From the sequence record MT129652.1: 64,000 bases of DNA; one strand, given 5' to 3'. Source of the stretch: Escherichia phage MN01. The notes under the pieces were generated by a model. The model was not told where the DNA came from, ran no database searches, and saw only the letters and a list, made by a program, of their open reading frames with translations. The position numbers and the translations under genes are program-made. Below, one piece after another: positions 2,276 to 43,798 of the stretch; position 1 is the first letter of the stretch; each line of letters starts with the position of its first letter.

Positions 2276-3213
2276 TAGCCCACCAATATAGGAGTTGGTG
2301 CATCCAGCAGGTCAAGTTCCTCACGAAGACGTTCTTTTTCCATGCGAGCTTCTTCGATTAAACGGACACCATCAACCGTGGTACCACCTGGCATCATCAT
2401 CCCCTGGTGTTTAGCCAATACGTTGCCGTTAACTTCCTTAACGAGCGCTGTGGCATAGTCTTTCACCCAACGGTTGTTGTATGCGCCATCTTGAAGTCCA
2501 AGGTCCTCACCGGCTCTCATACCGCTTATTCTGCGCGCTGGGTTATCCCACTGTGCACCCGCATTCCACGGATTATCACAATCGGCCGAAGCAAAACCAT
2601 AGCCAGCTGTATTGCCTACCATTGAATCCACACCGTTATACGATTTGGTATAAACTTCAATTACAATCACATCTCCCTGACGGAAGTTGCCCATAATTTT
2701 AAGTTGTTCAGTATCGTCATTATACCAGTAATCTGGCAGCGGAACCATCAGGTCTTGCATCATTGAACGGTATTGCATAAGCTGTGTAAAATAACCAAGG
2801 TCTGCACCAAAAGCATTTGGACCAAAGCTGTTACATGAGCTACCCATTCCACCGTTAATCCCGGCCAGCCCCAGAACAAAATCTGTGAACCACGGATATG
2901 TTGCTTGCCCGTCCATCGAAGTTAATGAACCGACGTTAGTACGAATAATCTGCGTTACTGCAAAAATATTACGTCCTTTTAAATCGAAAACACCATCACG
3001 GAATTTCTGTTGTGAAACTTCATCATGACCGATATAAAAAGCCTGATAACCTTTGTTATAACCATTATAATGATATTCACCATATAATTCTAATGCGCGC
3101 TGGATGCAATCATAAACCTGTTCGGTCGTAACTTCGATATTCGTGATTGGAGCACCAAGACGACGAAGGATTGCATCTTTTAATTGTTTCGGGTTGTATG
3201 ATTCAGTTGCCAT
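2275..3213 (-). CDS. 13: neck protein (T4 gp13-like)
   Basis: 312 aa; size and position match T4 gp13; overlaps gene 14 start (ATGA-type coupling). Confidence 0.85.
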
Positions 3214-3231
3214 ATGTTTTCCTCTTTACTG

Positions 3232-3239
3232 TATTTATA
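3232..3239 (-). promoter_or_regulatory. T4-type late promoter (TATAAATA on minus strand) for gene 13
   Basis: exact TATAAATA octamer about 20-28 nt upstream of the gene 13 ATG, immediately downstream of the wac terminator. Confidence 0.5.
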
Positions 3240-3241
3240 CG

Positions 3242-3262
3242 AAAAAAGGGCCGAAGCCCTTT
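3242..3262 (-). terminator. rho-independent terminator after wac
   Basis: GGGC-CGAA-GCCC hairpin flanked by A6/T5 runs directly after the wac stop. Confidence 0.6.
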
Positions 3263-3265
3263 TTG

Positions 3266-5635
3266 TTATGGTGCTGGATTTAATGTCACGAATGTTGACA
3301 AAAGAACCCATGCATTATCAACGAGAACATACGGGAGACCATCATCCGCAGGAGCGACAGGAGGCCTTTTGGAGAGCTCTGTTTCTAAGGCTGATACTTT
3401 ACCTTCCAACGTAGTTATCTTCGTCTCGGCTGCAGTCAGGCGACCAGGAAGAGGAGTTACTGTACCTTCAAGAGTTGTCACACGAGTAGTTAACGGTGCA
3501 ATTTTTGCAGTATCCAATTTAATTGCAGTAATTTCATCTTCAACTGTTGCAACTCTTTCGTCTAGCGGTGCAATTTTTGCGGTATCGAGTTTAATCGTAG
3601 TGATTTCTCCTTCACTTGATGTAACTCTTTCGTCTAGCGGTGCAATTTTTGCAGTATCCAATTTAATTGCGGTAATTTCATCTTCAACTGTTGCAATTTT
3701 TGCAGTATCCAATTTAATCGCAGTGATTTCATCTTCAACTGTTGCAACACGCGTAGTTAATGGAGCAATTTTTGCAGTATCCAATTTAATTGCGGTAATT
3801 TCATTTTCACTTGATGTGACACGCGTAGTTAATGGAGCAATTTTTGCAGTATCCAATTTAATCGCAGTGATTTCTCCTTCCGCCGAAGTCATTCGACCGG
3901 TCAAGGTTACCAAACCACCTTTGTTTGTTTCGATATTTGCTTTAATGGTAACCAGCTCGCCCTCAACATTGCTAACGTCTAAAGCCAAAGCAGTGACATC
4001 ATCATCAGTCGCCGCTGTTTTGGTTTCCAGTGCGGTTATTTTACCGTCAACAGTCGTATCCTTCGTTTCTAATGCAGTGAGTCGACCATCTTGTTCTGTA
4101 TCTTTATTTTGCAGAGCAAGAACATCTGCCTTAACACCGGTGACGGAAGTATTCAGTGCACCATAACGAGTATCTAATGAACTAATTGCCGTATCATTAT
4201 CATCAACACGACCTGTTAATGTTGTTACGCGTCCATCGGTTGTTGCCAATGAAGCTTTAACCGCGTCAACTTCAGTTTTGGAATCGATAATTTCAGCCCA
4301 AGTTCCTTGCTTGCGGCCATATAACTTATTATCTAGTGGTGCGTCGTTCAGCTTGGACGCCATCATCATATCCAAGTTAATTACAACCGGGAGAACACCA
4401 CGTTCAGCCACAGTAGCACCGTTAGGGTTGGTTCCGTTCATCTGACTAGTTAAAGTCAAAATAGAGCCTTTCATACCGGTGGTATTTGTACCGATTTCGG
4501 CCTGTACATCCTGAAGACCCGATGCAGTTTCGTTAGCCAGCGTAGTGGTTGCATTCAACTTATACGTGATAGTGTTTGGCTCCGGAGATTGCTCTGTACC
4601 GATTCTCTGAGAAAGCCATGCAGTGGTTCCGCGTAAACCAGAGCTTGAATCCTGACCAACAACAACCTGTAAGCCATTAACATCCGTCCGCAAAGCACCA
4701 ATTCGACCATTAATTGTCAATGGCTCCAGCGCTGTTCCAATATCGGTTTCAACCTTCGTGAGTCTTGGTTTGATATCAGCAATATCTGTTTCATTGGCTA
4801 AAACACGTCCACCAAGATTTTCAACGCGGGTTGTAATTGCAATCCCTGTACCAAAACCAATAGCTTCTTGAATGTTGACAATATCTTCGTCAATTTCAAC
4901 TGCTTTATCATCAAGAGTATTCAGTCGAACAAATACAGCCGGTTTATCTGTTGCTAAAGTAGACTCACCTAATTCTTCACGAATTTTAATTACTTTTACG
5001 TTAAGAGAACCAACATCAGAATCATGATAGTTATCTTCAAGAGTCTTAATACGAACTCCATGCGCAACAATAGCCGAACTGTTATCGATGATGCGGCGTT
5101 TCATGCCTTTTGACGGATTTCCAATAACCTGAAGACCATTTATATCTTGGTCAACATACTGACCTAATTCATTTTTAATCCATACGAGGTCATTACGAAC
5201 TGTACGATAATATGAATCGGTTAACGGGTCATAAGCACCAACATCTTCCTTTAACTTTTTAAGACCTTCGGATGTTTCGCTTGATAGTAATTCGGTATTA
5301 AATTGACGTTCATCAAGGTCAAGAATATCCGTACGGTTTTTTTCAATTTGTTTAACAACTTCCGTGTTAGTTGTTATATCCAAAGCTTCCTGAATATTAT
5401 TGACGTTATCAATAATTTCGTTGATTTTTTCTTTAGATGCATTTGAGTTGTCGTCGAGTGTATCTACGTTTGTTTGAACGCCAACTGCAGCGGCGTTCAA
5501 ATTACCATCATGACCATATTTGGTACTGGCCGCAGTCATACAATCGCCGTTTTGTATCCAACGAATTCTCTGTTGACCTTCGTCTGGAATACCGATGCTA
5601 TACGGCAGTTCTTTGAGACTGAGTTTATTAATCAT
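3266..5635 (-). CDS. wac: fibritin (whisker/collar protein), expanded coiled-coil
   Basis: N-terminus LPYSIGIPDEGQQRIRWIQNG matches T4 fibritin N-domain; C-terminal foldon-like LPYVLVDNAWVLLSTF; about 790 aa versus 487 in T4; start set at the Met following the gene 12 stop with an AGGA Shine-Dalgarno. Confidence 0.88.
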   Translation of the reverse strand: MINKLSLKELPYSIGIPDEGQQRIRWIQNGDCMTAASTKYGHDGNLNAAAVGVQTNVDTLDDNSNASKEKINEIIDNVNNIQEALDITTNTEVVKQIEKNRTDILDLDERQFNTELLSSETSEGLKKLKEDVGAYDPLTDSYYRTVRNDLVWIKNELGQYVDQDINGLQVIGNPSKGMKRRIIDNSSAIVAHGVRIKTLEDNYHDSDVGSLNVKVIKIREELGESTLATDKPAVFVRLNTLDDKAVEIDEDIVNIQEAIGFGTGIAITTRVENLGGRVLANETDIADIKPRLTKVETDIGTALEPLTINGRIGALRTDVNGLQVVVGQDSSSGLRGTTAWLSQRIGTEQSPEPNTITYKLNATTTLANETASGLQDVQAEIGTNTTGMKGSILTLTSQMNGTNPNGATVAERGVLPVVINLDMMMASKLNDAPLDNKLYGRKQGTWAEIIDSKTEVDAVKASLATTDGRVTTLTGRVDDNDTAISSLDTRYGALNTSVTGVKADVLALQNKDTEQDGRLTALETKDTTVDGKITALETKTAATDDDVTALALDVSNVEGELVTIKANIETNKGGLVTLTGRMTSAEGEITAIKLDTAKIAPLTTRVTSSENEITAIKLDTAKIAPLTTRVATVEDEITAIKLDTAKIATVEDEITAIKLDTAKIAPLDERVTSSEGEITTIKLDTAKIAPLDERVATVEDEITAIKLDTAKIAPLTTRVTTLEGTVTPLPGRLTAAETKITTLEGKVSALETELSKRPPVAPADDGLPYVLVDNAWVLLSTFVTLNPAP
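3470..3880 (-). repeat. tandem 72-bp (24-aa) coding repeat array inside wac
   Basis: six near-identical units EITAIKLDTAKIAPLTTRV(T/A)xx (one truncated to 17 aa) visible in both the protein and the nucleotide sequence. Confidence 0.85.
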
Positions 5636-5643
5636 TTTGGTCC

Positions 5644-7194
5644 TTAGTAATGAATTTTGATAATATAGTTTAAAGACATATTCCATGGGCGAGTTTCATA
5701 TCCAATAAGACCTTCACGGTTTAATGTACCTAAAGCATCTCTGCCGCCACCGAGTTCAAATCCATCGTTAGTAAAATATGAAGCGTTATCCCAGTCCGCA
5801 TATTTTCTTGTGCCCAGATAACCCTGATAAACTGATGCACCAAATGGAGCTTCGTTACGTTGGTATTCACCCCAACCACCCGCGTGTTTATGATATGACA
5901 TTTGCTGAGCTTGTACACCACCAACCCATGAACCATCACAACCAACACCTAAACGGTCTTTGCCATAACCATCTTGACCGCGGTTATTCAGAATATGCCC
6001 ACCGGTACCAGCACCACGAACAAACAAACCACGCATATCAGGAATACCGACGTTGGTCCAATCGCCACCGAAACGAGTTCCAACAGTATTTCGATAGTCA
6101 GGGAATTGGTCACCATTAACAGTGCCGCCATGACACATAATCCAGCCAGGAGGAGCATTATCACCTGCGAACATCATCACCGTTCCAACTGGAACCCGTT
6201 CAGAAGCATAACGCTGTGTAGAAAGTAATTGACCGCCCATATGAGCTGTATTGGAATCAAAATTGCCGGTGGAAATATAATCTAAAGAAAGACTTCCATT
6301 AATTCGTTGACCACCGCGAGTGTTGATTACATCAGCATTCCAAGCCAGCGCACCGGCACCATCACCACCAGGAGCAACCCCAGCCTGAGTGGTTAATCGA
6401 ACGACACCGCGAATATCGGTTGTAGCACCACGACCATTAAGAGTTGCTCCGGTTACCGCAACACCATCAGCACTGTTATTAATCTCTGACTGATTACCAA
6501 GACGAATAATCCCAGCGCGGTCTTGTGTTGCTGTACGAGCATTTAAACCTGCTGGAGAAATTGCCACACCGTCACCCAGGGTTCCTGCTTGCACTTCAGC
6601 ATTTGTAGCAATTCGTACTAAACCAGAAACAGTTTGTGTGGCAGTTGAATAAGTCGGAAGAGCCGCAGTTGCCTTGCCAATTGCCAGAGCAACTTTCAAC
6701 GGAGACATAGCGGTTGTATCATCTGTACCAGCTAACGCTGCATCCTCGGTACTAATACGAAGAACACCCAAATTATTTTCGGTACCAACACGAACAGTAA
6801 AAACATCATCAATTGTTGCTTTTAATGAAGATGGAACAATAGCTGCATCGGTTACTGTCCCGGCAATTGCTTCAGCATCGGTTGCATAACGGGTAATACC
6901 TACATAAGTTTCTGTGGCTTGCGTAGGGATGTCTAAACGAGCTTTTAAGGTCGCTGGAGTAACTGCAGAGTCTGGACTAATACCATCAATAACTTCTTGT
7001 GTGGTGGCTAGTCTGATGAGCCCTGCGGTCGTTTCGGAAGAGGCTGGGATATATCCATCTAACGCAATTTTATTAAGAGACCCTAAAGCCTCTTGTACGT
7101 TGGTAACAGTCGACGGGAAGGCTGTCCCCGTCGGGTCGAACGTTTTATATTCGGATTTATCGCTAATGTGTTTTAGCGTGTTAGTCGTTGTCAT
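5644..7194 (-). CDS. 12: short tail fibre protein (T4 gp12-like)
   Basis: 516 aa; strong collinear similarity to T4 gp12 including C-terminal ...MSYHKHAGG.GEY...TRPWN.SLNYIIK. Confidence 0.9.
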   Translation of the reverse strand: MTTTNTLKHISDKSEYKTFDPTGTAFPSTVTNVQEALGSLNKIALDGYIPASSETTAGLIRLATTQEVIDGISPDSAVTPATLKARLDIPTQATETYVGITRYATDAEAIAGTVTDAAIVPSSLKATIDDVFTVRVGTENNLGVLRISTEDAALAGTDDTTAMSPLKVALAIGKATAALPTYSTATQTVSGLVRIATNAEVQAGTLGDGVAISPAGLNARTATQDRAGIIRLGNQSEINNSADGVAVTGATLNGRGATTDIRGVVRLTTQAGVAPGGDGAGALAWNADVINTRGGQRINGSLSLDYISTGNFDSNTAHMGGQLLSTQRYASERVPVGTVMMFAGDNAPPGWIMCHGGTVNGDQFPDYRNTVGTRFGGDWTNVGIPDMRGLFVRGAGTGGHILNNRGQDGYGKDRLGVGCDGSWVGGVQAQQMSYHKHAGGWGEYQRNEAPFGASVYQGYLGTRKYADWDNASYFTNDGFELGGGRDALGTLNREGLIGYETRPWNMSLNYIIKIHY

Positions 7195-38313: not shown

Positions 38314-38841
38314 ATGAAATTTTTAACTCCAATTTATCTAACCTTAATGCACGCCTTCGCTGAACGCGCCATTGAACGCTTAGATTCAGACCAATACGCC
38401 TGGTATGAACCCGCTTCAAGAATGCAAGAGTTTGGTACTCTTAGACTTGATGGTGGAAGACAAACGGGTAAAACAAGTGCCATTGCGCAGTTTGCTGCGG
38501 ATTGGGTTTCTAAGGGTAATGATGTGATTGTTATGTCAAGTTCTTCGCATCGCTCACGAGAAATCTGTGATATAATAAAGCGGGTTTCTAAGGCACAGCC
38601 GCATCTTAATGTTGAACGACCTGGTTTTGTTGTATATGATACTGTTCGTTCATTTTTAGATGAAGATCATTTTCACAAGTATCGTGGACTGTCTGTTACC
38701 CGATTATTGATTATTATTGAAGAGCCTATTCGTCTCCCAGCGATGGATAAGTTCTATGAAGCTTATCAGACAATGATGAATAAATTTATGCGTCAGGGTT
38801 CTAAACCTCTGCCACTGTTCTTTGTGGTAGGAATGCAATGA
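38314..38841 (+). CDS. P-loop NTPase-like protein, hypothetical
   Basis: Walker A-like GGRQTGKTS; hydrophobic beta-strand LLIIIEEP consistent with Walker B. Confidence 0.5.
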   Translation: MKFLTPIYLTLMHAFAERAIERLDSDQYAWYEPASRMQEFGTLRLDGGRQTGKTSAIAQFAADWVSKGNDVIVMSSSSHRSREICDIIKRVSKAQPHLNVERPGFVVYDTVRSFLDEDHFHKYRGLSVTRLLIIIEEPIRLPAMDKFYEAYQTMMNKFMRQGSKPLPLFFVVGMQ

Positions 38842-39137
38842 TGACTGATGAAGAACTTTTTGACAAAATCTACTTTATTCCAAAGGTTAGGTCTGAAGAT
38901 TTCGTAAAGAACTATGAAATCTTTAATAAAGCTAATTTCTTTGAGTATGTGTTTTTGTCTGGGCCTTTTATTGGGTCCAGATTTCGTTGCACTGCTCCGA
39001 GTATTCGCTTGATGAAGTTGGTTCCTTACTTTACTCTGGAATTTATTTCTGGACCGTGTAAGGGTATTATCACTCGTAGCCTCCTGACCTATGACCAGGA
39101 TGTGCGATTAATTAGTGACTGGAAAAAATATGTCTAA
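38838..39137 (+). CDS. hypothetical protein
   Basis: 99 aa ORF, ATGA coupling. Confidence 0.45.
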   Translation: MMTDEELFDKIYFIPKVRSEDFVKNYEIFNKANFFEYVFLSGPFIGSRFRCTAPSIRLMKLVPYFTLEFISGPCKGIITRSLLTYDQDVRLISDWKKYV

Positions 39138-39344
39138 ATTGACTATTGAAGGTTCTGAAGAAGCTCTGAAGATGTTTGTTGACTGGTTCCACGAACAGGG
39201 CGAACAAGGCTTTATGGAATGTTGGGACGGCGGCCAATGGAATGGTAAAGAAATTGTTTACCCAACTACGTATATCTCCGTGCAAGGTTTGACTGAAGGC
39301 CTTCGTTTGGTAGAATACGATATCGCAACTGGCGAGGAAGTGAA

Positions 39345-39348
<4 letters not shown>
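39130..39348 (+). CDS. hypothetical protein
   Basis: start moved to MSKLTIEG. Confidence 0.45.
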
Positions 39349-39928
<580 letters not shown>

Positions 39929-39984
39929 TGTACAAGCAGATTGAAATGAGTTATGATTATCCCATCAAACAAAAGGAGATAATC

Positions 39985-40443
39985 ATGACTACTATCGATT
40001 CAAGTGTTTACATTCGCCGCAATAAACTTCGTCGCATTTTTGAAACGGAGTTCCTCAAAATTAATAATGCTATCAACAAGGCTTGTAAAGAAGCAGGCCT
40101 TGAAGCATTCTTCATTAAGTACAGTCCGCACCTGTTGGACCGTGCAATCCAACGTGAAATTGATGAACAATATGTTTTTGACTTGTTTGGAAAAATCACA
40201 CCACATGTAAAAGAAATCGTTGAATTCCTGGAGATGAAACCACTCCCGGAAGTTGAAGCACAAATTGACCCGAATGTGAACTACCGTCCACTTCGTCTGG
40301 AAATCACAGACAAGAACCTGTGGTTAGGAATGACAGTTAACCCGGCTCTTCCTGGGAAGTCTCCAACCATGTGTTGTCGTATGGCGTTTGTTAACTCTAA
40401 TCGTCTGGAAGGAAAAATTAGCACAAAAGTAATTTATATCTAA
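39985..40443 (+). CDS. regB: RegB-like sequence-specific endoribonuclease
   Basis: start moved to MTTIDSSVYIRRNKLRR; blocks IRRNKLRR, SPHLLDRAIQREIDE, RLEITDKNLWLG match my recollection of T4 RegB; AAGGAGA Shine-Dalgarno. Confidence 0.7.
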   Translation: MTTIDSSVYIRRNKLRRIFETEFLKINNAINKACKEAGLEAFFIKYSPHLLDRAIQREIDEQYVFDLFGKITPHVKEIVEFLEMKPLPEVEAQIDPNVNYRPLRLEITDKNLWLGMTVNPALPGKSPTMCCRMAFVNSNRLEGKISTKVIYI

Positions 40444-40453
40444 TGGGGAATTC

Positions 40454-40996
40454 ATGAAAAAAGTAATCGCCACCTTACTATTGACAGTTAGTATGTCTGC
40501 CCATAGCGTAGAGCCTACTTTCAGTAATGAACAAATGGGAAACCTCCAATATGCTTATGCGTTTGGAGAACAGTTCCAGAAAAATGGTAAGTACAAAGAA
40601 AATCCGCACCAACATAATGGTTTGGGATATATCATGGCTGGTTTAGCCTGGCAGGAAAGTTCTGCCGGGATTAATACTGGATTAAATAAAGATAAGCACC
40701 ATGCATATGGTATATTCCAAAATTATCTTCCAACCATTCGCGAACGCGTGAAACAGGTTGGGTGGACAATGACAGATAAAGAAATAATCAAGATGATAAG
40801 CAAGAGAGAGAACAGCGCACGTTGGGCTTACATTGAGCTTTCATACTGGTTGAATATTCATAAGGGGGATATAAGAAAAACACTATCATCATATAACGCA
40901 GGGTGGAATGTGAAAGCTGGTAATACGTATGCTTCGCAGGTCCTAGAAAAAGCTAACTACTTAAAATCACGAGGCCTATTAAAAACGGTGGATTAA
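40454..40996 (+). CDS. secreted lytic transglycosylase-like protein
   Basis: signal peptide MKKVIATLLLTVSMSAHS; SLT-like motifs (AWQESS, YGIFQ, SYNAG). Confidence 0.5.
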   Translation: MKKVIATLLLTVSMSAHSVEPTFSNEQMGNLQYAYAFGEQFQKNGKYKENPHQHNGLGYIMAGLAWQESSAGINTGLNKDKHHAYGIFQNYLPTIRERVKQVGWTMTDKEIIKMISKRENSARWAYIELSYWLNIHKGDIRKTLSSYNAGWNVKAGNTYASQVLEKANYLKSRGLLKTVD

Positions 40997-40998
40997 AA

Positions 40999-41358
40999 AT
41001 GGTAAGAGTTATCACTTTAGCCATAGGGTTAGTATTCAGCATGGGAGGAATAGCTTCAGTACAGAGCGACGACAACAACAGCATCATAGAATATGCAACG
41101 AGGACGGCTAAAGATTATTGCGCAGCAAGCAATGTGGATTGTGTAATCCAGTTCAGCGCCAAGCTCACCGCAGCCTATAAAGACGGCCAAAATGATGTTG
41201 AACACACGCTTTTGAAAAAGAATGTATTGTCCAACAAATATGAAAAGAAATTATTTGAAATGGATTGCATTCTGTCAAGTGCAAAATATAAGGCGGCCTG
41301 CACCAGTATGGTGGACAGGTTAGTGGATTCATATAATAGAGGATTGAACTCTAAATGA
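40999..41358 (+). CDS. secreted/periplasmic protein, hypothetical
   Basis: N-terminal signal-anchor; six Cys. Confidence 0.45.
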   Translation: MVRVITLAIGLVFSMGGIASVQSDDNNSIIEYATRTAKDYCAASNVDCVIQFSAKLTAAYKDGQNDVEHTLLKKNVLSNKYEKKLFEMDCILSSAKYKAACTSMVDRLVDSYNRGLNSK

Positions 41359-41828
41359 TTACCCAGTATATTAAGGGCGATATCGTCGCCCTCTTTCTTC
41401 AAGGCAATATTATTGCACATGGTTGCAACTGCTTCCACACAATGGGTTCTGGCGTAGCTGGACAGTTGGCGAAGGCTTATCCAAAAGTTTTAGAAATAGA
41501 TAAAACCACTACTGAATACGGTTCCAGAGAAAAACTCGGTGATATGTCTATTGTTTTTAAACATAAACCTATTGGGTTTGGTATGTGCTATAATTTGTAC
41601 ACCCAATATGAACCGGGCCCTAATCTTGATTATGGTGCTTTAGTAAATTGTATGATAGAATTAAATCTACAGGCAGAAACCCTTTTGTTTAAACCTGTAA
41701 TTTATATTCCTCGTATTGGTTGTGGTATTGCCGGTGGGGATTGGGAAAAGGTCTCTGTATTAATTGACATGTTTACTCCTGACATTGATTTAATAGTGGT
41801 GGATTATGAGCCAAGCTCGAATTCTTAA
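41355..41828 (+). CDS. macrodomain protein (TARG1/DarG-like ADP-ribose hydrolase fold)
   Basis: N-terminal IAHGCNCFHTMGSGVAGQLAKAYP resembles the TARG1/DarG macrodomain signature (AHCxS..MGAGIA..FK); C-terminal IPRIGCGIAGGDW matches the phosphate-binding G-x-G-x-A-G loop. Confidence 0.6.
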   Translation: MITQYIKGDIVALFLQGNIIAHGCNCFHTMGSGVAGQLAKAYPKVLEIDKTTTEYGSREKLGDMSIVFKHKPIGFGMCYNLYTQYEPGPNLDYGALVNCMIELNLQAETLLFKPVIYIPRIGCGIAGGDWEKVSVLIDMFTPDIDLIVVDYEPSSNS

Positions 41829-42012
41829 AACGGCCAAATGTGAAAAATGCGAATGGCCAGTAATCGCAGCTTTATGCAACGATGAAATGAATTGCGAATA
41901 TGATTACTGGTGGTACTGTTCTAATAAAGGATGTTCTAATCATAAGGGTGAAGGTTTTCATTCTGGTTATTGCGAACATCCTAAATTTGTGCGATATGGT
42001 GAACCGAAATGA
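41806..42012 (+). CDS. Cys-rich small protein (putative zinc-binding)
   Basis: 68 aa with CxxC, CNDEMNC, CSNKGC, C..H spacing. Confidence 0.45.
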   Translation: MSQARILKTAKCEKCEWPVIAALCNDEMNCEYDYWWYCSNKGCSNHKGEGFHSGYCEHPKFVRYGEPK

Positions 42013-42194
42013 GTTTAAGTATTAGTCAGAAAAGTAGATTATTTGAGCTTATTCATGAGCTTTTGGATGAGCATGCAGAAGCAAACGCTTTTTACGATGA
42101 ATATGGCCCGATAGATGCCGAACATCAGGAAGAATTTGCTAATCGATTTGATGAGAAAGAAAACGAATTAATAGCTTATGTGAATACACTTTAA
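42009..42194 (+). CDS. small acidic protein, hypothetical
   Basis: 61 aa, ATGA coupling. Confidence 0.4.
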   Translation: MSLSISQKSRLFELIHELLDEHAEANAFYDEYGPIDAEHQEEFANRFDEKENELIAYVNTL

Positions 42195-42203
42195 GAAGGT
42201 GAT

Positions 42204-42776
42204 ATGGCGAGTTTAATTTATCATTACGCAGCAATGAATGCAGGCAAAACAGCTTCATTGCTGACTGCAGCTTATTCCTATAAAGAGCGTGGAATGAGTG
42301 TGCTTTTGCTAAAACCTGTTATTGATAATCGGGACTCGGAATCTGAAATTAAATCACGCATCGGTATTAGCCAGGAAGCAAACCTGGTAACGGCCGACAT
42401 GAACCTGTTTGAATTCTATAAATGGGCCGAGTCTCAAAAGGATATCCATTGTGTCCTGGTCGATGAAGCTCAATTTTTGTTACCAGAGCAAATTGACCAG
42501 TTAGCTCAAGTGGTTGATAATTACAATATCCCCGTTATGTGTTACGGGCTAAGAACAGATTTTCGGGGCCAATTATTTCCCGGTTCGGCCAGACTTCTGG
42601 CTATTTCAGATAAACTGGTTGAATTAAAAGGCGTCTGTCATTGCGGCCGGAAAGCAACCATGACCGCTCGAGTAATCGACGGTGCTGCTGTAAAGGACGG
42701 CGAGCAAGTATTGGTCGGTGGGAATGAATCGTACGTATCTTTATGCAGAAAACATTGGCTCGAATTAACAAGCTGA
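42204..42776 (+). CDS. tk: thymidine kinase
   Basis: P-loop MNAGKT; C-terminal zinc ribbon CHCGRKAT...C; length matches T4 Tk. Confidence 0.92.
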   Translation: MASLIYHYAAMNAGKTASLLTAAYSYKERGMSVLLLKPVIDNRDSESEIKSRIGISQEANLVTADMNLFEFYKWAESQKDIHCVLVDEAQFLLPEQIDQLAQVVDNYNIPVMCYGLRTDFRGQLFPGSARLLAISDKLVELKGVCHCGRKATMTARVIDGAAVKDGEQVLVGGNESYVSLCRKHWLELTS

Positions 42777-42783
42777 GGTTCGC

Positions 42784-43059
42784 ATGGTATACAAGGTTTG
42801 GACGTATATCTCTATTTTGATATTTCTGGTTCTGGTTTTTGTTCCTATGCAACAGGACCAGGAAAGGTATGAGCGCGAAGTCGAAATCGTGGCAAGTACC
42901 TATCACTCGTTCAATAAAGAGTGTCCTAATAAAAATGGAATAAGCCTGCAACAAGCATACTATTTGTCAACGGTCACCAGTCCAAAACAACGGGTCTGGG
43001 TCGAACGTAATTTTGCAAGTTTATTTTCAGAGTACTGCTTTAATTTTAAACGTTTATAA
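42784..43059 (+). CDS. membrane-anchored protein, hypothetical
   Basis: 91 aa; N-terminal transmembrane segment. Confidence 0.45.
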   Translation: MVYKVWTYISILIFLVLVFVPMQQDQERYEREVEIVASTYHSFNKECPNKNGISLQQAYYLSTVTSPKQRVWVERNFASLFSEYCFNFKRL

Positions 43060-43131
43060 ATACAGTTGCTAACTAGTATTCCGCTATGTTAAGGCTGCAA
43101 AGCGTAATCATGACCAACAATAGGAGTCCTT

Positions 43132-43425
43132 ATGGACCTTATTCGAGGACTTTCATTAAGTCTAATAATCCTGGGCTGTTTAGGTCCAAATCTGTCCTCT
43201 GCAGCAGAGGGGAAGTTTACCCAATATGCAGATAGTGCGATGAAGATTTATTCGCAATTCAAAGAACCAAGCGTACATCAATCCGAACAGTTCTGGGCAT
43301 TTATCAAGACTGAATGGAACAACAAAAGCCAATGCGAAACCGAAATCACCTGCAAAAGCGATGGTAAAGCTGCGGCGAGAGAGTATGCTAAATTAATGAA
43401 GGTAAAATTGGAAGATGAAATTTGA
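43132..43425 (+). CDS. rI: lysis inhibition regulator RI-like (antiholin)
   Basis: 97 aa, same length as T4 RI; signal-anchor N-terminus; FWAFIKTEW..C..C..KLMKVKLE resembles the T4 RI periplasmic domain. Confidence 0.65.
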   Translation: MDLIRGLSLSLIILGCLGPNLSSAAEGKFTQYADSAMKIYSQFKEPSVHQSEQFWAFIKTEWNNKSQCETEITCKSDGKAAAREYAKLMKVKLEDEI

Positions 43426-43798
43426 TGATTTCGTAACGGGTCGTGGGTCTGAGGTGGATTCATACATTGGGTGGTTGTTAGTCTCTTTGGCTTATTTTAA
43501 GTCTGCCCATCTTGAAACCAAAAGTTACGCCCGCCATAAAGCTTATGATTTCTACTTCACAGAAATCCAAGGTCCACTCGACCAGTTCAGTGAGCAATGG
43601 TTAGGTTACAGCGGGAAACAATACAAAGCTGCATTACCGTCCGCCTCGGACTTGCCGAAAGATACAATTTTGTTTTTAGATGAAATGATTAAAAGCTCGG
43701 AAAGAGTCTATAAAGTTGTACCCAAGGCTATTCAATCGACTCTGGACGATATCGTTGGAGTTTTCTTTCAGACTAAGTATCTGTTAACACTAGAGTAA
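43415..43798 (+). CDS. hypothetical protein
   Basis: 127 aa ORF followed by a terminator. Confidence 0.45.
   Translation: MKFDDFVTGRGSEVDSYIGWLLVSLAYFKSAHLETKSYARHKAYDFYFTEIQGPLDQFSEQWLGYSGKQYKAALPSASDLPKDTILFLDEMIKSSERVYKVVPKAIQSTLDDIVGVFFQTKYLLTLE

What the first reader, a model, noticed from the sequence alone, without database searches (positions are those of the whole stretch)
41355..42012. TARG1/DarG-like macrodomain protein followed by a Cys-rich zinc-binding protein, just upstream of tk
The 157-aa protein has the N-terminal AHGCNCFHTMGSGVAGQ block and C-terminal GCGIAGGDW loop typical of TARG1/DarG-type macrodomains, which remove ADP-ribose from proteins or DNA. I do not recall a macrodomain among T4 core genes. 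A phage macrodomain could reverse host ADP-ribosylation-based immunity such as DarT-type DNA modification, process NAD-derived signalling molecules, or regulate the ADP-ribosyltransferases of the phage itself. The overlapping 68-aa Cys-rich ORF may be a partner.
Basis: partly seen in the sequence, partly recalled or inferred. Interest (0 to 1): 0.6.

Follow-up and report, generated by a model that had tools for sequence, protein, structure and literature searches.

The report
Phage T4 tk.4 (AdfM) macrodomain orthologue
This is the T4-like phage gene tk.4 (recently named adfM), a small enzyme that most likely strips ADP-ribose off phage DNA to defeat the bacterial DarTG2 defence; it is already described in phage T4, and the small zinc protein next to it is an unrelated, movable neighbour.

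Summary
Window 41355-41828 (+) encodes a 157-aa macrodomain, overlapped by 23 nt by a 68-aa Cys-rich ORF (41806-42012). tk follows only after a third small ORF, tk.2.

The window is an SP18-like T-even phage (Gaprivervirus, about 96% nt identity). The macrodomain is the syntenic orthologue of T4 Tk.4 (56% identity over 153 aa, between vs and tk). A 2025 preprint renamed T4 tk.4 as adfM because its knockout sensitises T4 to DarTG2.

A refinement: fold and profile matches place it in the TARG1/DarG/ALC1-like class. However, the catalytic Lys of DarG and TARG1 is replaced by a Gln that is invariant in 120 of 120 homologues. This matches SCO6735/BT1257, where that Gln is essential for removing ADP-ribose from thymidine. 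It is not a DarG member: no DarT-binding domain, no Lys, no adjacent darT.

The 68-aa ORF is Pfam PF23895, a zinc-ribbon-like protein of unknown function. It is absent from T4, from close relatives and from 36 of 36 non-tk-linked macrodomain loci. Its overlap with tk.4 comes from an exact ATG-to-ATG cassette difference from SP18. Partnership is not supported.

Verdict: already known, low interest.

The parts
41355..41828 (+). tk.4 / adfM orthologue: a stand-alone 157-aa macrodomain, predicted ADP-ribosyl glycohydrolase
   Evidence: ORF. Pfam Macro 32.4 bits, cut-off 22. phrog_335 E 2.8e-70. 56% identity to T4 Tk.4 over 153 aa, E 2e-68. AF2 model pLDDT 94.9. Foldseek best matches are TARG1, Poa1p, DarG and BT1257.
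41415..41465 (+). N-terminal active-site block AHGCNCFHTMGSGVAGQ (residues 21-37), including H22 and N25
   Evidence: H22, G23, N25, C26 and G33 are invariant in 62 homologues. H22 and N25 align with SCO6735 His24 and Asn27. The N27S mutation nearly abolishes SCO6735 activity (PMC9411070).
41604..41606 (+). Codon CAA = Gln84, at the position of the catalytic Lys of DarG (K80) and TARG1 (K84) and of the essential Gln85 of SCO6735
   Evidence: hhalign to Mtb DarG, SCO6735 and TARG1. In a MAFFT alignment the position is Q in 120 of 120 homologues and in T4 and T2 Tk.4. It is K in DarG, TARG1 and PhiKZ gp104, and Q in SCO6735 and BT1257.
41718..41744 (+). Phosphate-binding loop GCGIAGGDW (residues 122-130)
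   Evidence: G122, G124 and W130 are invariant. The motif GCG[IL]AGG.W is the same as in SCO6735 and BT1257. TARG1 Asp125 corresponds to Ala126 here.
41806..42012 (+). 68-aa zinc-ribbon-like protein, Pfam PF23895 (= RB32ORF111c of phage T2); function unknown; a neighbour, not a demonstrated partner
40999..41358 (+). Context: vs (valyl-tRNA synthetase modifier); its stop overlaps the tk.4 start (ATGA)
   Evidence: phrog_1256 E 1.4e-32. Same gene order as in SP18 and T4.
42009..42194 (+). Context: tk.2 (DUF7438), lying between the zinc ORF and tk
   Evidence: Pfam DUF7438 E 7.4e-16. 49% identity to T4 Tk.2.
42204..42776 (+). Context: tk, thymidine kinase
   Evidence: Pfam TK E 5.7e-58.

Best explanation
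The 157-aa protein is the orthologue of phage T4 Tk.4 (AdfM) in an SP18-like T-even phage. It is a stand-alone macrodomain, apparently transcribed together with vs, tk.2 and tk, since the ORFs abut or overlap. It most likely binds ADP-ribose attached to thymidine in single-stranded phage DNA and hydrolyses the N-glycosidic bond. That modification is written by host DarT2-type toxins (DarTG2 defence). Removing it restores a replicable template, so the phage escapes DarTG2.

The active site is not the Lys type of DarG and TARG1. It is the Gln type described for Streptomyces SCO6735: His22, Asn25, Gln84 and the GCGIAGG loop. In SCO6735 the Gln positions the distal ribose and a water molecule does the chemistry.

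Shown elsewhere, not here:
- The genetic requirement of T4 tk.4 for growth on a DarTG2 host.
- Thymidine-ADP-ribose hydrolysis by SCO6735, and its dependence on Gln85 and Asn27.
- In vitro removal of DarT2-written ADP-ribose from DNA by the unrelated-clade phage macrodomain PhiKZ AdfM.

Inferred here: that this 56%-identical orthologue has the same activity and role.

The overlapping 68-aa zinc-ribbon ORF is an independent small gene of the variable cassette region between tk.4 and tk.
For: Identity and context:
- The window is about 96% nt identical to Gaprivervirus phages, with gene order regB-vs.1-vs-tk.4-...-tk.2-tk.
- 56% identity to T4 Tk.4 over 153 aa without gaps, at the same position.
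- T4 tk.4 is the only significant transposon hit under DarTG2, and a clean knockout is sensitised; it was named AdfM.

Fold and family:
- Pfam Macro above the cut-off.
- PDB sequence hits to BT1257, Poa1p, SCO6735, Mtb DarG and TARG1.
- AF2 pLDDT 94.9. Foldseek best matches are TARG1 (E 5e-10, TM 0.73-0.82), Poa1p, DarG and BT1257.
- DarG is the only PADLOC and NCBIfam hit.

Active site:
- Q84 aligns to DarG K80, TARG1 K84 and SCO6735 Q85. H22 aligns to H24 and N25 to N27. The P-loop matches GCGLAGG.
- Q84, H22, N25, G122 and G124 are invariant in the homologues.
- SCO6735 Q85A is inactive and N27S is nearly inactive on DarT-modified DNA.
- The phage macrodomain PhiKZ AdfM removes DarT2-written ADP-ribose from DNA in vitro.
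Against: - No biochemistry exists for any member of the Tk.4 clade. The T4 evidence is genetic and comes from a preprint.
- This allele is only 56% identical to the tested T4 allele.
- Residues that help SCO6735 bind DNA are not conserved: Lys34 corresponds to Ser32, and no counterpart of Lys89 could be placed in the shorter loop. The 5-residue longer 'mobile loop' is absent.
- Enzymes of the TARG1 class are promiscuous (protein Glu/Asp-ADP-ribose, O-acetyl-ADP-ribose, ADP-ribose-1''-phosphate), so DNA need not be the only or main substrate.
- Bacterial homologues of this clade that I inspected are not next to darT.
Confidence: 0.75

Rival explanations
1. It is a metabolite-level 'phosphatase' or deacetylase, as the old T4 annotation says. 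On this view it hydrolyses ADP-ribose-1''-phosphate (as yeast Poa1p does) or O-acetyl-ADP-ribose, tidying NAD-derived small molecules during infection rather than acting on DNA.
For: T4 tk.4 is annotated 'contains A1pp phosphatase motif' and PHROG calls the family 'phosphatase'. Poa1p is among the best sequence and fold matches. His22 aligns with the Poa1p residue mutated in PDB 6lfs (H23A). That correspondence is my reading of the printed alignment, assuming a 3-residue offset in chain numbering.
Against: The only phenotype known for the T4 orthologue is specific to DarTG2. By the same reading, Poa1p Ser30 is Thr29 here. Poa1p Phe152 is Ala126 here (alignment of the wild-type chain). No pathway known in T-even infection produces ADP-ribose-1''-phosphate (background knowledge). 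The 'phosphatase' label is inherited from the domain name, not from an assay.
Confidence: 0.1
2. It reverses ADP-ribosylation of proteins or RNA. The modification would be written either by host ADP-ribosyltransferase defences or by the phage's own Alt/ModA/ModB enzymes, so the protein would act as a regulator of phage-driven modification.
For: TARG1 and SCO6735 also remove ADP-ribose from protein substrates. T-even phages encode several ADP-ribosyltransferases (background knowledge; mentions phage ARTs).
Against: Alt, ModA and ModB modify arginine, and macrodomains are not known to cleave that linkage; ARH/DraG-type enzymes do (established knowledge, not tested here). T4 stays sensitive to the mRNA ADP-ribosyltransferase system CmdTAC despite carrying tk.4 (abstract of PMC11618068). 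No phenotype other than DarTG2 was reported.
Confidence: 0.1
3. The macrodomain and the overlapping 68-aa zinc protein form a two-component unit. The zinc protein would target or regulate the macrodomain, for example by binding DNA or DarT.
For: The ORFs overlap by 23 nt in the window. Whenever PF23895 occurs in T4-like phages it lies between tk.4 and tk, even in the distant Slopekvirus-like Klebsiella phages. The fold is zinc-ribbon-like, a type often used for nucleic-acid binding (weak).
Against: - T4 lacks the zinc ORF, and its 'Tk.3' is unrelated, yet its AdfM is functional.
- Only 19 of 42 tk-linked and 0 of 36 other macrodomain loci carry it. Only 6 have it directly adjacent.
- Near-identical relatives L004 and L006 (tk 99%, vs 96%) lack it.
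- In the phage collection, 777 records carry it against 2753 with the macrodomain.
- In SP18, T4-type tk.3 sits between the two genes, and the window differs by an exact ATG-to-ATG indel.
- PF23895 occurs in Ralstonia prophage-like regions with neither a macrodomain nor tk.
Confidence: 0.04

Closest known systems
Phage T4 Tk.4 = AdfM (anti-DarT factor, macrodomain); bioRxiv 10.1101/2025.11.20.689424
   Same: Full-length orthologue: 56% identity with no gaps over 153 aa. It has the same position between vs and tk, the same size, and the same H/N/Q active-site residues.
   Different: It is a divergent allele. Its P-loop is GCGIAGGDW where T4 has GAGIGKGNW. Its downstream neighbour is PF23895 instead of T4-type Tk.3. 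This allele, at 90-95% identity, also occurs in many Tequatrovirus genomes.
Streptomyces coelicolor SCO6735 and Bacteroides BT1257 (Gln-type ALC1-like macrodomains; PDB 5E3B, 2FG1)
   Same: BT1257 is the best PDB sequence match (E about 1e-10). The Gln sits at the catalytic position, and His, Asn and the GCG[IL]AGG.W loop are conserved. SCO6735 hydrolyses DarT-written thymidine-ADP-ribose.
   Different: Only 26-29% identity. It lacks the 5-residue longer 'mobile loop'. Of the DNA-contacting lysines, Lys34 is Ser32 here and no Lys89 counterpart could be placed. It is phage-encoded.
DarG antitoxin macrodomain (M. tuberculosis 5M3I, T. aquaticus 5M31/5M3E)
   Same: Same fold class (Foldseek E about 1e-8, TM about 0.73; hhalign probability 97.8%). 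It has the same presumed substrate, and the Asn and the Thr before the catalytic position are conserved.
   Different: Catalytic Lys80 is replaced by Gln. There is no C-terminal DarT-binding domain and no darT neighbour. The NCBIfam DarG equivalog scores 30.6 bits against a cut-off of 250.
Human TARG1 (C6orf130/OARD1; PDB 4J5R/4J5S)
   Same: Best Foldseek match (E 5e-10). The catalytic loop has the same length, so the alignment has no gap there.
   Different: The Lys84/Asp125 dyad is Gln84/Ala126 here. Identity is 25%.
PhiKZ gp104 'AdfM' (Cell Rep 2026, PMC13309987)
   Same: A phage-encoded stand-alone macrodomain that counters DarTG2, with removal of ADP-ribose from DNA shown in vitro.
   Different: It belongs to a different clade: DarG-like with the FPTK lysine, 22% identity, hhalign probability 96% over 126 columns only. 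The shared name hides two independent acquisitions with different catalytic residues.

Membership tests
Macrodomain superfamily (Pfam PF01661) | Profile score above Pfam's gathering threshold | tested here: met
   32.4 bits vs 22, residues 22-134 on model positions 2-115 of 118.
Macrodomain superfamily (Pfam PF01661) | Three-layer alpha/beta/alpha fold with a mixed beta-sheet | tested here: met
   AF2 model pLDDT 94.9 with alternating strands and helices. 163 PDB matches at E<=0.001; the 50 best listed are macrodomains or designed proteins on a similar fold.
TARG1/ALC1-like class of macrodomains | Closest structural and sequence neighbours are members of this class | tested here: met
   Best matches are TARG1, Poa1p, DarG, BT1257, SCO6735 and ALC1.
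T4 Tk.4 / AdfM | Full-length sequence orthology | tested here: met
   56% identity, 74% positives, 0 gaps over 153 aa, E 2e-68.
T4 Tk.4 / AdfM | Conserved genomic position (downstream of vs, upstream of tk) | tested here: met
   Gene order vs-tk.4-...-tk.2-tk in the window, SP18, T4 and T2.
T4 Tk.4 / AdfM | Required for phage growth on a DarTG2-expressing host | not testable with these tools
   Shown only for T4.
DarG antitoxin (NCBIfam NF048014, equivalog) | Score above the curated cut-off | tested here: not met
   30.6 bits vs 250.
DarG antitoxin | C-terminal DarT-binding domain | tested here: not met
   The protein is 157 aa and matches only positions 3-150 of the 338-position model, and 4-148 of 329 in PADLOC.
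DarG antitoxin | Catalytic lysine (Lys80) | tested here: not met
   Gln84 aligns with Lys80.
DarG antitoxin | Operon with a darT toxin gene | tested here: not met
   The neighbours are vs, PF23895, DUF7438 and TK.
TARG1 | Lys84/Asp125 catalytic dyad | tested here: not met
   Gln84 and Ala126 occupy these positions. The TARG1 sequence was verified against the PDB.
SCO6735/BT1257 subclass (Gln-type) | Gln at the catalytic position, held by a conserved Asn; His before it; Gly-rich P-loop | tested here: met
   Q84, N25, H22 and GCGIAGG align with Q85, N27, H24 and GCGLAGG. Functional data on these residues are in PMC9411070.
SCO6735/BT1257 subclass (Gln-type) | Extended 'mobile loop' (5 residues longer than in DarG and TARG1) | tested here: not met
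   The loop after Gln84 has the TARG1/DarG length. SCO6735 and BT1257 carry a 5-residue insertion relative to the window protein.
Poa1p-type ADP-ribose-1''-phosphate phosphatase | Residues mutated in the Poa1p crystal structures (His23, Ser30, Phe152) | tested here: inconclusive
   From the alignment, His is conserved (H22), Ser30 is Thr29 and Phe152 is Ala126. The His and Ser positions assume a 3-residue offset in chain numbering.
Pfam PF23895 'Phage zinc binding domain' (the 68-aa ORF) | Profile score above the cut-off and conserved metal ligands | tested here: met
   102.4 bits vs 27, end to end. C12, C15, C38, C43 and H46 are invariant in 65 sequences. Metal binding itself is not testable here.

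The most novel reading that the evidence does not exclude
Two deeply divergent tk.4 alleles (56% identity, different phosphate-loop sequences) are swapped among T-even genera at the same locus. They might be specialised for different ADP-ribosylating toxins. On this reading the window-type allele would counter a DarT variant, or another nucleic-acid ADP-ribosyltransferase, that the T4-type allele does not. Alternatively, the Gln-type short-loop clade as a whole might have a substrate range distinct from Lys-type DarG-like phage macrodomains such as PhiKZ AdfM. A stand-alone homologue beside a CmdC-like toxin-antitoxin-chaperone module in a Vibrio island (L144) hints that the clade may meet ADP-ribosylation systems other than DarT.
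Probability: 0.12. Interest if true: 0.5.

Novelty: already known. Interest (0 to 1): 0.15.

Why it matters
As a discovery it matters little. The gene has been annotated in T4 since the genome was first described, and its anti-DarTG2 role was reported in 2025. Three modest points add value.

(1) Two phage proteins now share the name AdfM. T4 Tk.4 is Gln-type and SCO6735-like, while PhiKZ gp104 is Lys-type and DarG-like. This implies independent recruitment of macrodomains against the same defence, probably with different chemistry.

(2) The Gln84/Asn25/His22 triad gives precise mutants for the missing biochemistry of the Tk.4 clade.

(3) The tk.4-tk interval is a small-ORF cassette region. Gene adjacency or overlap there should not be read as functional coupling.

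Tried and rejected
- Promoter and terminator scan of 38500-43500: 13 promoter-like sites against 13.6 expected, so nothing usable. Co-transcription is inferred only from abutting or overlapping ORFs.
- Sequence search of the zinc ORF against the PDB: nothing below E 0.5.
- The first homologue search for the zinc ORF found only 2 proteins. A profile of 8 locus-derived sequences was needed to reach 134.
- HMMER's pairwise alignment to BT1257 misplaced the catalytic loop, aligning Q84 to Asp. I rejected it in favour of the profile and MAFFT alignments, which agree with each other.
- Looked for darT next to bacterial homologues of the clade (Ruegeria, Pelagimonas, Verrucomicrobia, Vibrio and others). 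None was evident by inspection, but this was not an exhaustive profile search.
- The 189-aa and 101-aa ORFs of the Vibrio TAC-like module gave no Pfam or PADLOC hit.
- The Iyer/Aravind virus NAD-ADPr survey and the CmdTAC paper contained nothing specific on Tk.4.
- Not used: the search of protein representatives, the third fold search, and the metagenome scan. They were judged unnecessary.
Full report
**1. What is in the sequence**

Window 41355-41828 (+) is a 157-aa ORF. Window 41806-42012 (+) is a 68-aa ORF that overlaps it by 23 nt.

The surrounding genes all lie on the + strand and abut or overlap one another:
- vs.1-like (40454-40996)
- vs (40999-41358; its stop overlaps the macrodomain start)
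- the macrodomain ORF
- the Cys-rich ORF
- a 61-aa ORF (42009-42194, ATGA overlap)
- tk (42204-42776)

So tk is not immediately downstream; tk.2 intervenes. A consensus promoter and terminator scan gave no signal above shuffled expectation.

**2. Where the window comes from and what the genes are called**

The 2.7-kb stretch is 94-97% identical to SP18-like T-even phages (Gaprivervirus, Straboviridae). In SP18 the same genes are annotated regB, vs.1, vs, tk.4, tk.3, gp111, tk.2 and tk.

T4 itself has vs, tk.4 ('phosphatase; contains A1pp phosphatase motif'), tk.3, tk.2, tk.1 and tk. The window macrodomain is 56% identical to T4 Tk.4 over 153 aa without a gap (E 2e-68). T2 Tk.4 is identical to T4's. 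The 61-aa ORF is 49% identical to T4 Tk.2.

The family is large. tblastn finds it in 2753 of 50,697 phage records: T-even relatives of Escherichia, Klebsiella, Salmonella, Acinetobacter, Aeromonas and Vibrio, as well as unrelated myoviruses.

**3. What is already known about tk.4**

A transposon-sequencing study of T4 found tk.4 to be the single significant hit on a DarTG2-expressing host. A clean knockout was sensitised to DarTG2. The authors named the gene adfM (anti-DarT factor, macrodomain). From structural similarity to M. tuberculosis DarG they proposed, without biochemistry, that it removes ADP-ribose from DNA (bioRxiv 10.1101/2025.11.20.689424).

This fits an earlier observation that T4 and T2 lacking AdfA and AdfN remain DarTG2-resistant (PMC11825919).

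Independently, a macrodomain of the jumbo phage PhiKZ (gp104) received the same name. It was shown in vitro to remove DarT2-written ADP-ribose from a TNTC oligonucleotide (PMC13309987).

**4. Fold and class**

Evidence for the fold class:
- Pfam Macro is passed (32.4 vs 22 bits).
- phmmer against PDB sequences finds, in order: BT1257 (2FG1/2AFC, E about 1e-10), yeast Poa1p, SCO6735 (5E3B), Mtb DarG (5M3I) and TARG1.
- An AF2 model built on 62 homologues is confident (pLDDT 94.9, pTM 0.89).
- Its best Foldseek PDB matches are TARG1 (E 5e-10), Poa1p, T. aquaticus and M. tuberculosis DarG, and BT1257. Viral MacroD-type domains rank lower.
- PADLOC and NCBIfam each return DarG as the only hit. It covers the macrodomain part alone and scores far below the equivalog cut-off (30.6 vs 250 bits).

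Assignment to the TARG1/DarG (ALC1-like) class is supported. Membership of DarG proper is not.

**5. Active site: a refinement**

DarG uses Lys80 and TARG1 uses the Lys84/Asp125 dyad. SCO6735 lacks both. It has Gln85 at the lysine position, and Q85A abolishes hydrolysis of DarT-modified DNA. N27S nearly abolishes it and G128E reduces it (PMC9411070).

I recovered the real PDB sequences of BT1257, SCO6735, Mtb DarG and TARG1 from HMMER alignments. I aligned them to the family profile with hhalign, and to 120 homologues with MAFFT. All alignments agree:

| Window residue | DarG | TARG1 | SCO6735 |
|---|---|---|---|
| Gln84 | Lys80 | Lys84 | Gln85 |
| Asn25 | Asn (conserved) | Ser | Asn27 |
| His22 | Asn | His | His24 |
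| Ala126 | Gly | Asp125 | Ala |
| GCGIAGG loop | GVGNGGL | GCGLDRL | GCGLAGG |

- Gln84 is Q in 120 of 120 homologues and in T4 and T2 Tk.4.
- PhiKZ gp104 has the DarG-type FPTK lysine and is only 22% identical.
- The Tk.4 clade lacks the 5-residue longer 'mobile loop' of SCO6735 and BT1257. Lys34 of SCO6735 corresponds to Ser32 here.

The clade is thus a Gln-type, short-loop branch of the ALC1-like class. The two phage 'AdfM' proteins are different solutions to the same defence.

**6. Mechanism proposed**

Host DarT2 ADP-ribosylates thymidine in single-stranded phage DNA and blocks replication (background). The Tk.4 orthologue binds the ADP-ribose through its Gly-rich loops. It positions the distal ribose with Gln84, which is held by Asn25. 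It then hydrolyses the thymidine-ribose bond, as proposed for SCO6735, and so restores the template.

The T4 phenotype, the SCO6735 chemistry and the PhiKZ activity were all shown elsewhere. Transfer of these to this protein is inference from 56% orthology, synteny and complete conservation of the functional residues. My confidence is about 0.75. Direct inhibition of DarT by binding, as reported for SCO6735, cannot be excluded as a contribution.

**7. The 68-aa Cys-rich ORF**

*Whether it partners the macrodomain.* The distribution argues against it:
- It is not homologous to T4 Tk.3, and T4 lacks it although T4 AdfM works.
- Among 78 IMG/VR loci with a macrodomain homologue, it is present in 19 of 42 tk-linked loci and in 0 of 36 others. 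It is directly adjacent in only 6.
- Relatives with 99%-identical tk and 96%-identical vs (L004, L006) lack it.
- In the phage collection, 777 records carry it against 2753 with the macrodomain.
- In SP18 a T4-type tk.3 lies between tk.4 and this ORF. The window differs from SP18 by an exact ATG-to-ATG indel of that cassette. The overlap, and the last few residues of Tk.4 (which score low in the model), are therefore by-products of cassette exchange.
- In Slopekvirus-like Klebsiella phages it sits two ORFs after the macrodomain and directly before tk.
- In Ralstonia prophage-like regions it occurs with neither gene.

Its recurrent location between tk.4 and tk in T-even phages reflects conserved synteny of a variable small-ORF region, not coupling.

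**8. Other readings**

*Metabolite phosphatase or deacetylase.* This rests on an inherited domain label and on similarity to Poa1p. It cannot be excluded as a side activity, but it does not explain the DarTG2-specific phenotype.

*Reversal of the phage's own Alt/Mod ADP-ribosylation.* This is unlikely. Those enzymes modify arginine, a linkage macrodomains are not known to cleave (established knowledge, not tested here).

*Action on RNA ADP-ribosylation.* CmdTAC robustly defends against the T-even family, which carries tk.4 (abstract of PMC11618068).

**9. Wider distribution**

Homologues of about 35-40% identity, with the same NxYTQ and G[AC]G[IL]AGGDW motifs, occur as stand-alone genes in bacterial genomes. 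These include Rhodobacteraceae, Verrucomicrobia and Desulfobacterales (255 confirmed stretches). Those I inspected had no obvious darT neighbour. In Vibrio aestuarianus one lies in an integrase-flanked island beside a three-gene module. The last gene of that module is a SecB/CmdC-like chaperone. This is a lead only.

**10. Verdict**

The gene is an orthologue of an already described T4 counter-defence gene, so novelty is 'already known' and interest is low, about 0.15. The residual novel possibility is allele- or clade-specific substrate range.

Noticed in passing
window 41780-41810 vs L001 (SP18) 2880-3120: The window differs from SP18 by an exact ATG-to-ATG absence of the 210-bp T4-type tk.3 cassette. 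The same 28-nt tk.4 3' end (GACATTGATTTAATAGTGGTGGATTATG) is joined to tk.3 in SP18 and to the PF23895 ORF in the window. The sequence before the PF23895 ATG in SP18 shows short similarity (..TTATGA). This looks like small-ORF cassette shuffling at start-codon junctions.
   Followed up: partly
L003, L040 (IMG/VR Tequatrovirus-like contigs), positions 4001-4462; identity bands: Two tk.4 alleles about 56% identical circulate at the same locus. Contigs with T4-like neighbours (T4-type tk.3 at 90-93%; vs and tk only 43% and 71% identical to the window) carry the window-type macrodomain at 92%. 290 phage records fall in the 90-95% band. This indicates allele exchange between T-even genera.
   Followed up: partly
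L144 (Vibrio aestuarianus LMG 7909) 2762-5885: A Tk.4-clade macrodomain (3992-4462, +) lies next to an integrase-like ORF. It is convergent to a three-gene minus-strand module of 189 aa, 101 aa and 157 aa. The last is SecB-like and matches the PADLOC PD-T4-9_C (CmdC-type) chaperone at E 8e-9. This is a possible toxin-antitoxin-chaperone defence module beside a stand-alone macrodomain.
   Followed up: partly
PhiKZ gp104 sequence from PMC13309987, compared with window 41355-41828: The name AdfM is now used for two non-orthologous phage macrodomains. PhiKZ gp104 is DarG-like with the FPTK catalytic Lys. T4 Tk.4 and this protein have Gln at that position. They share 22% identity.
   Followed up: yes
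L162-L165 (Ralstonia-associated contigs) 4001-4234: PF23895 zinc-ribbon homologues occur in prophage-like regions (GpA-type terminase and DUF1064 nearby) among small ORFs, next to an ISL3 transposase, with no macrodomain or tk. P0216 fuses PF23895 to a UVR (PF02151) motif.
   Followed up: partly
window 42009-42194: Tk.2 (DUF7438, 61 aa, acidic and helical) gives a sub-threshold match to Pfam 'Unstab_antitox', a putative addiction-module component (E 0.005, 17.2 vs 23.3 bits).
   Followed up: no
window 40454-40996: The Vs.1 orthologue (180 aa) has an N-terminal signal-peptide-like segment and a weak SLT lytic-transglycosylase match (E 0.0075, below the cut-off). Some phage records annotate it as an SLT-domain protein.
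   Followed up: no
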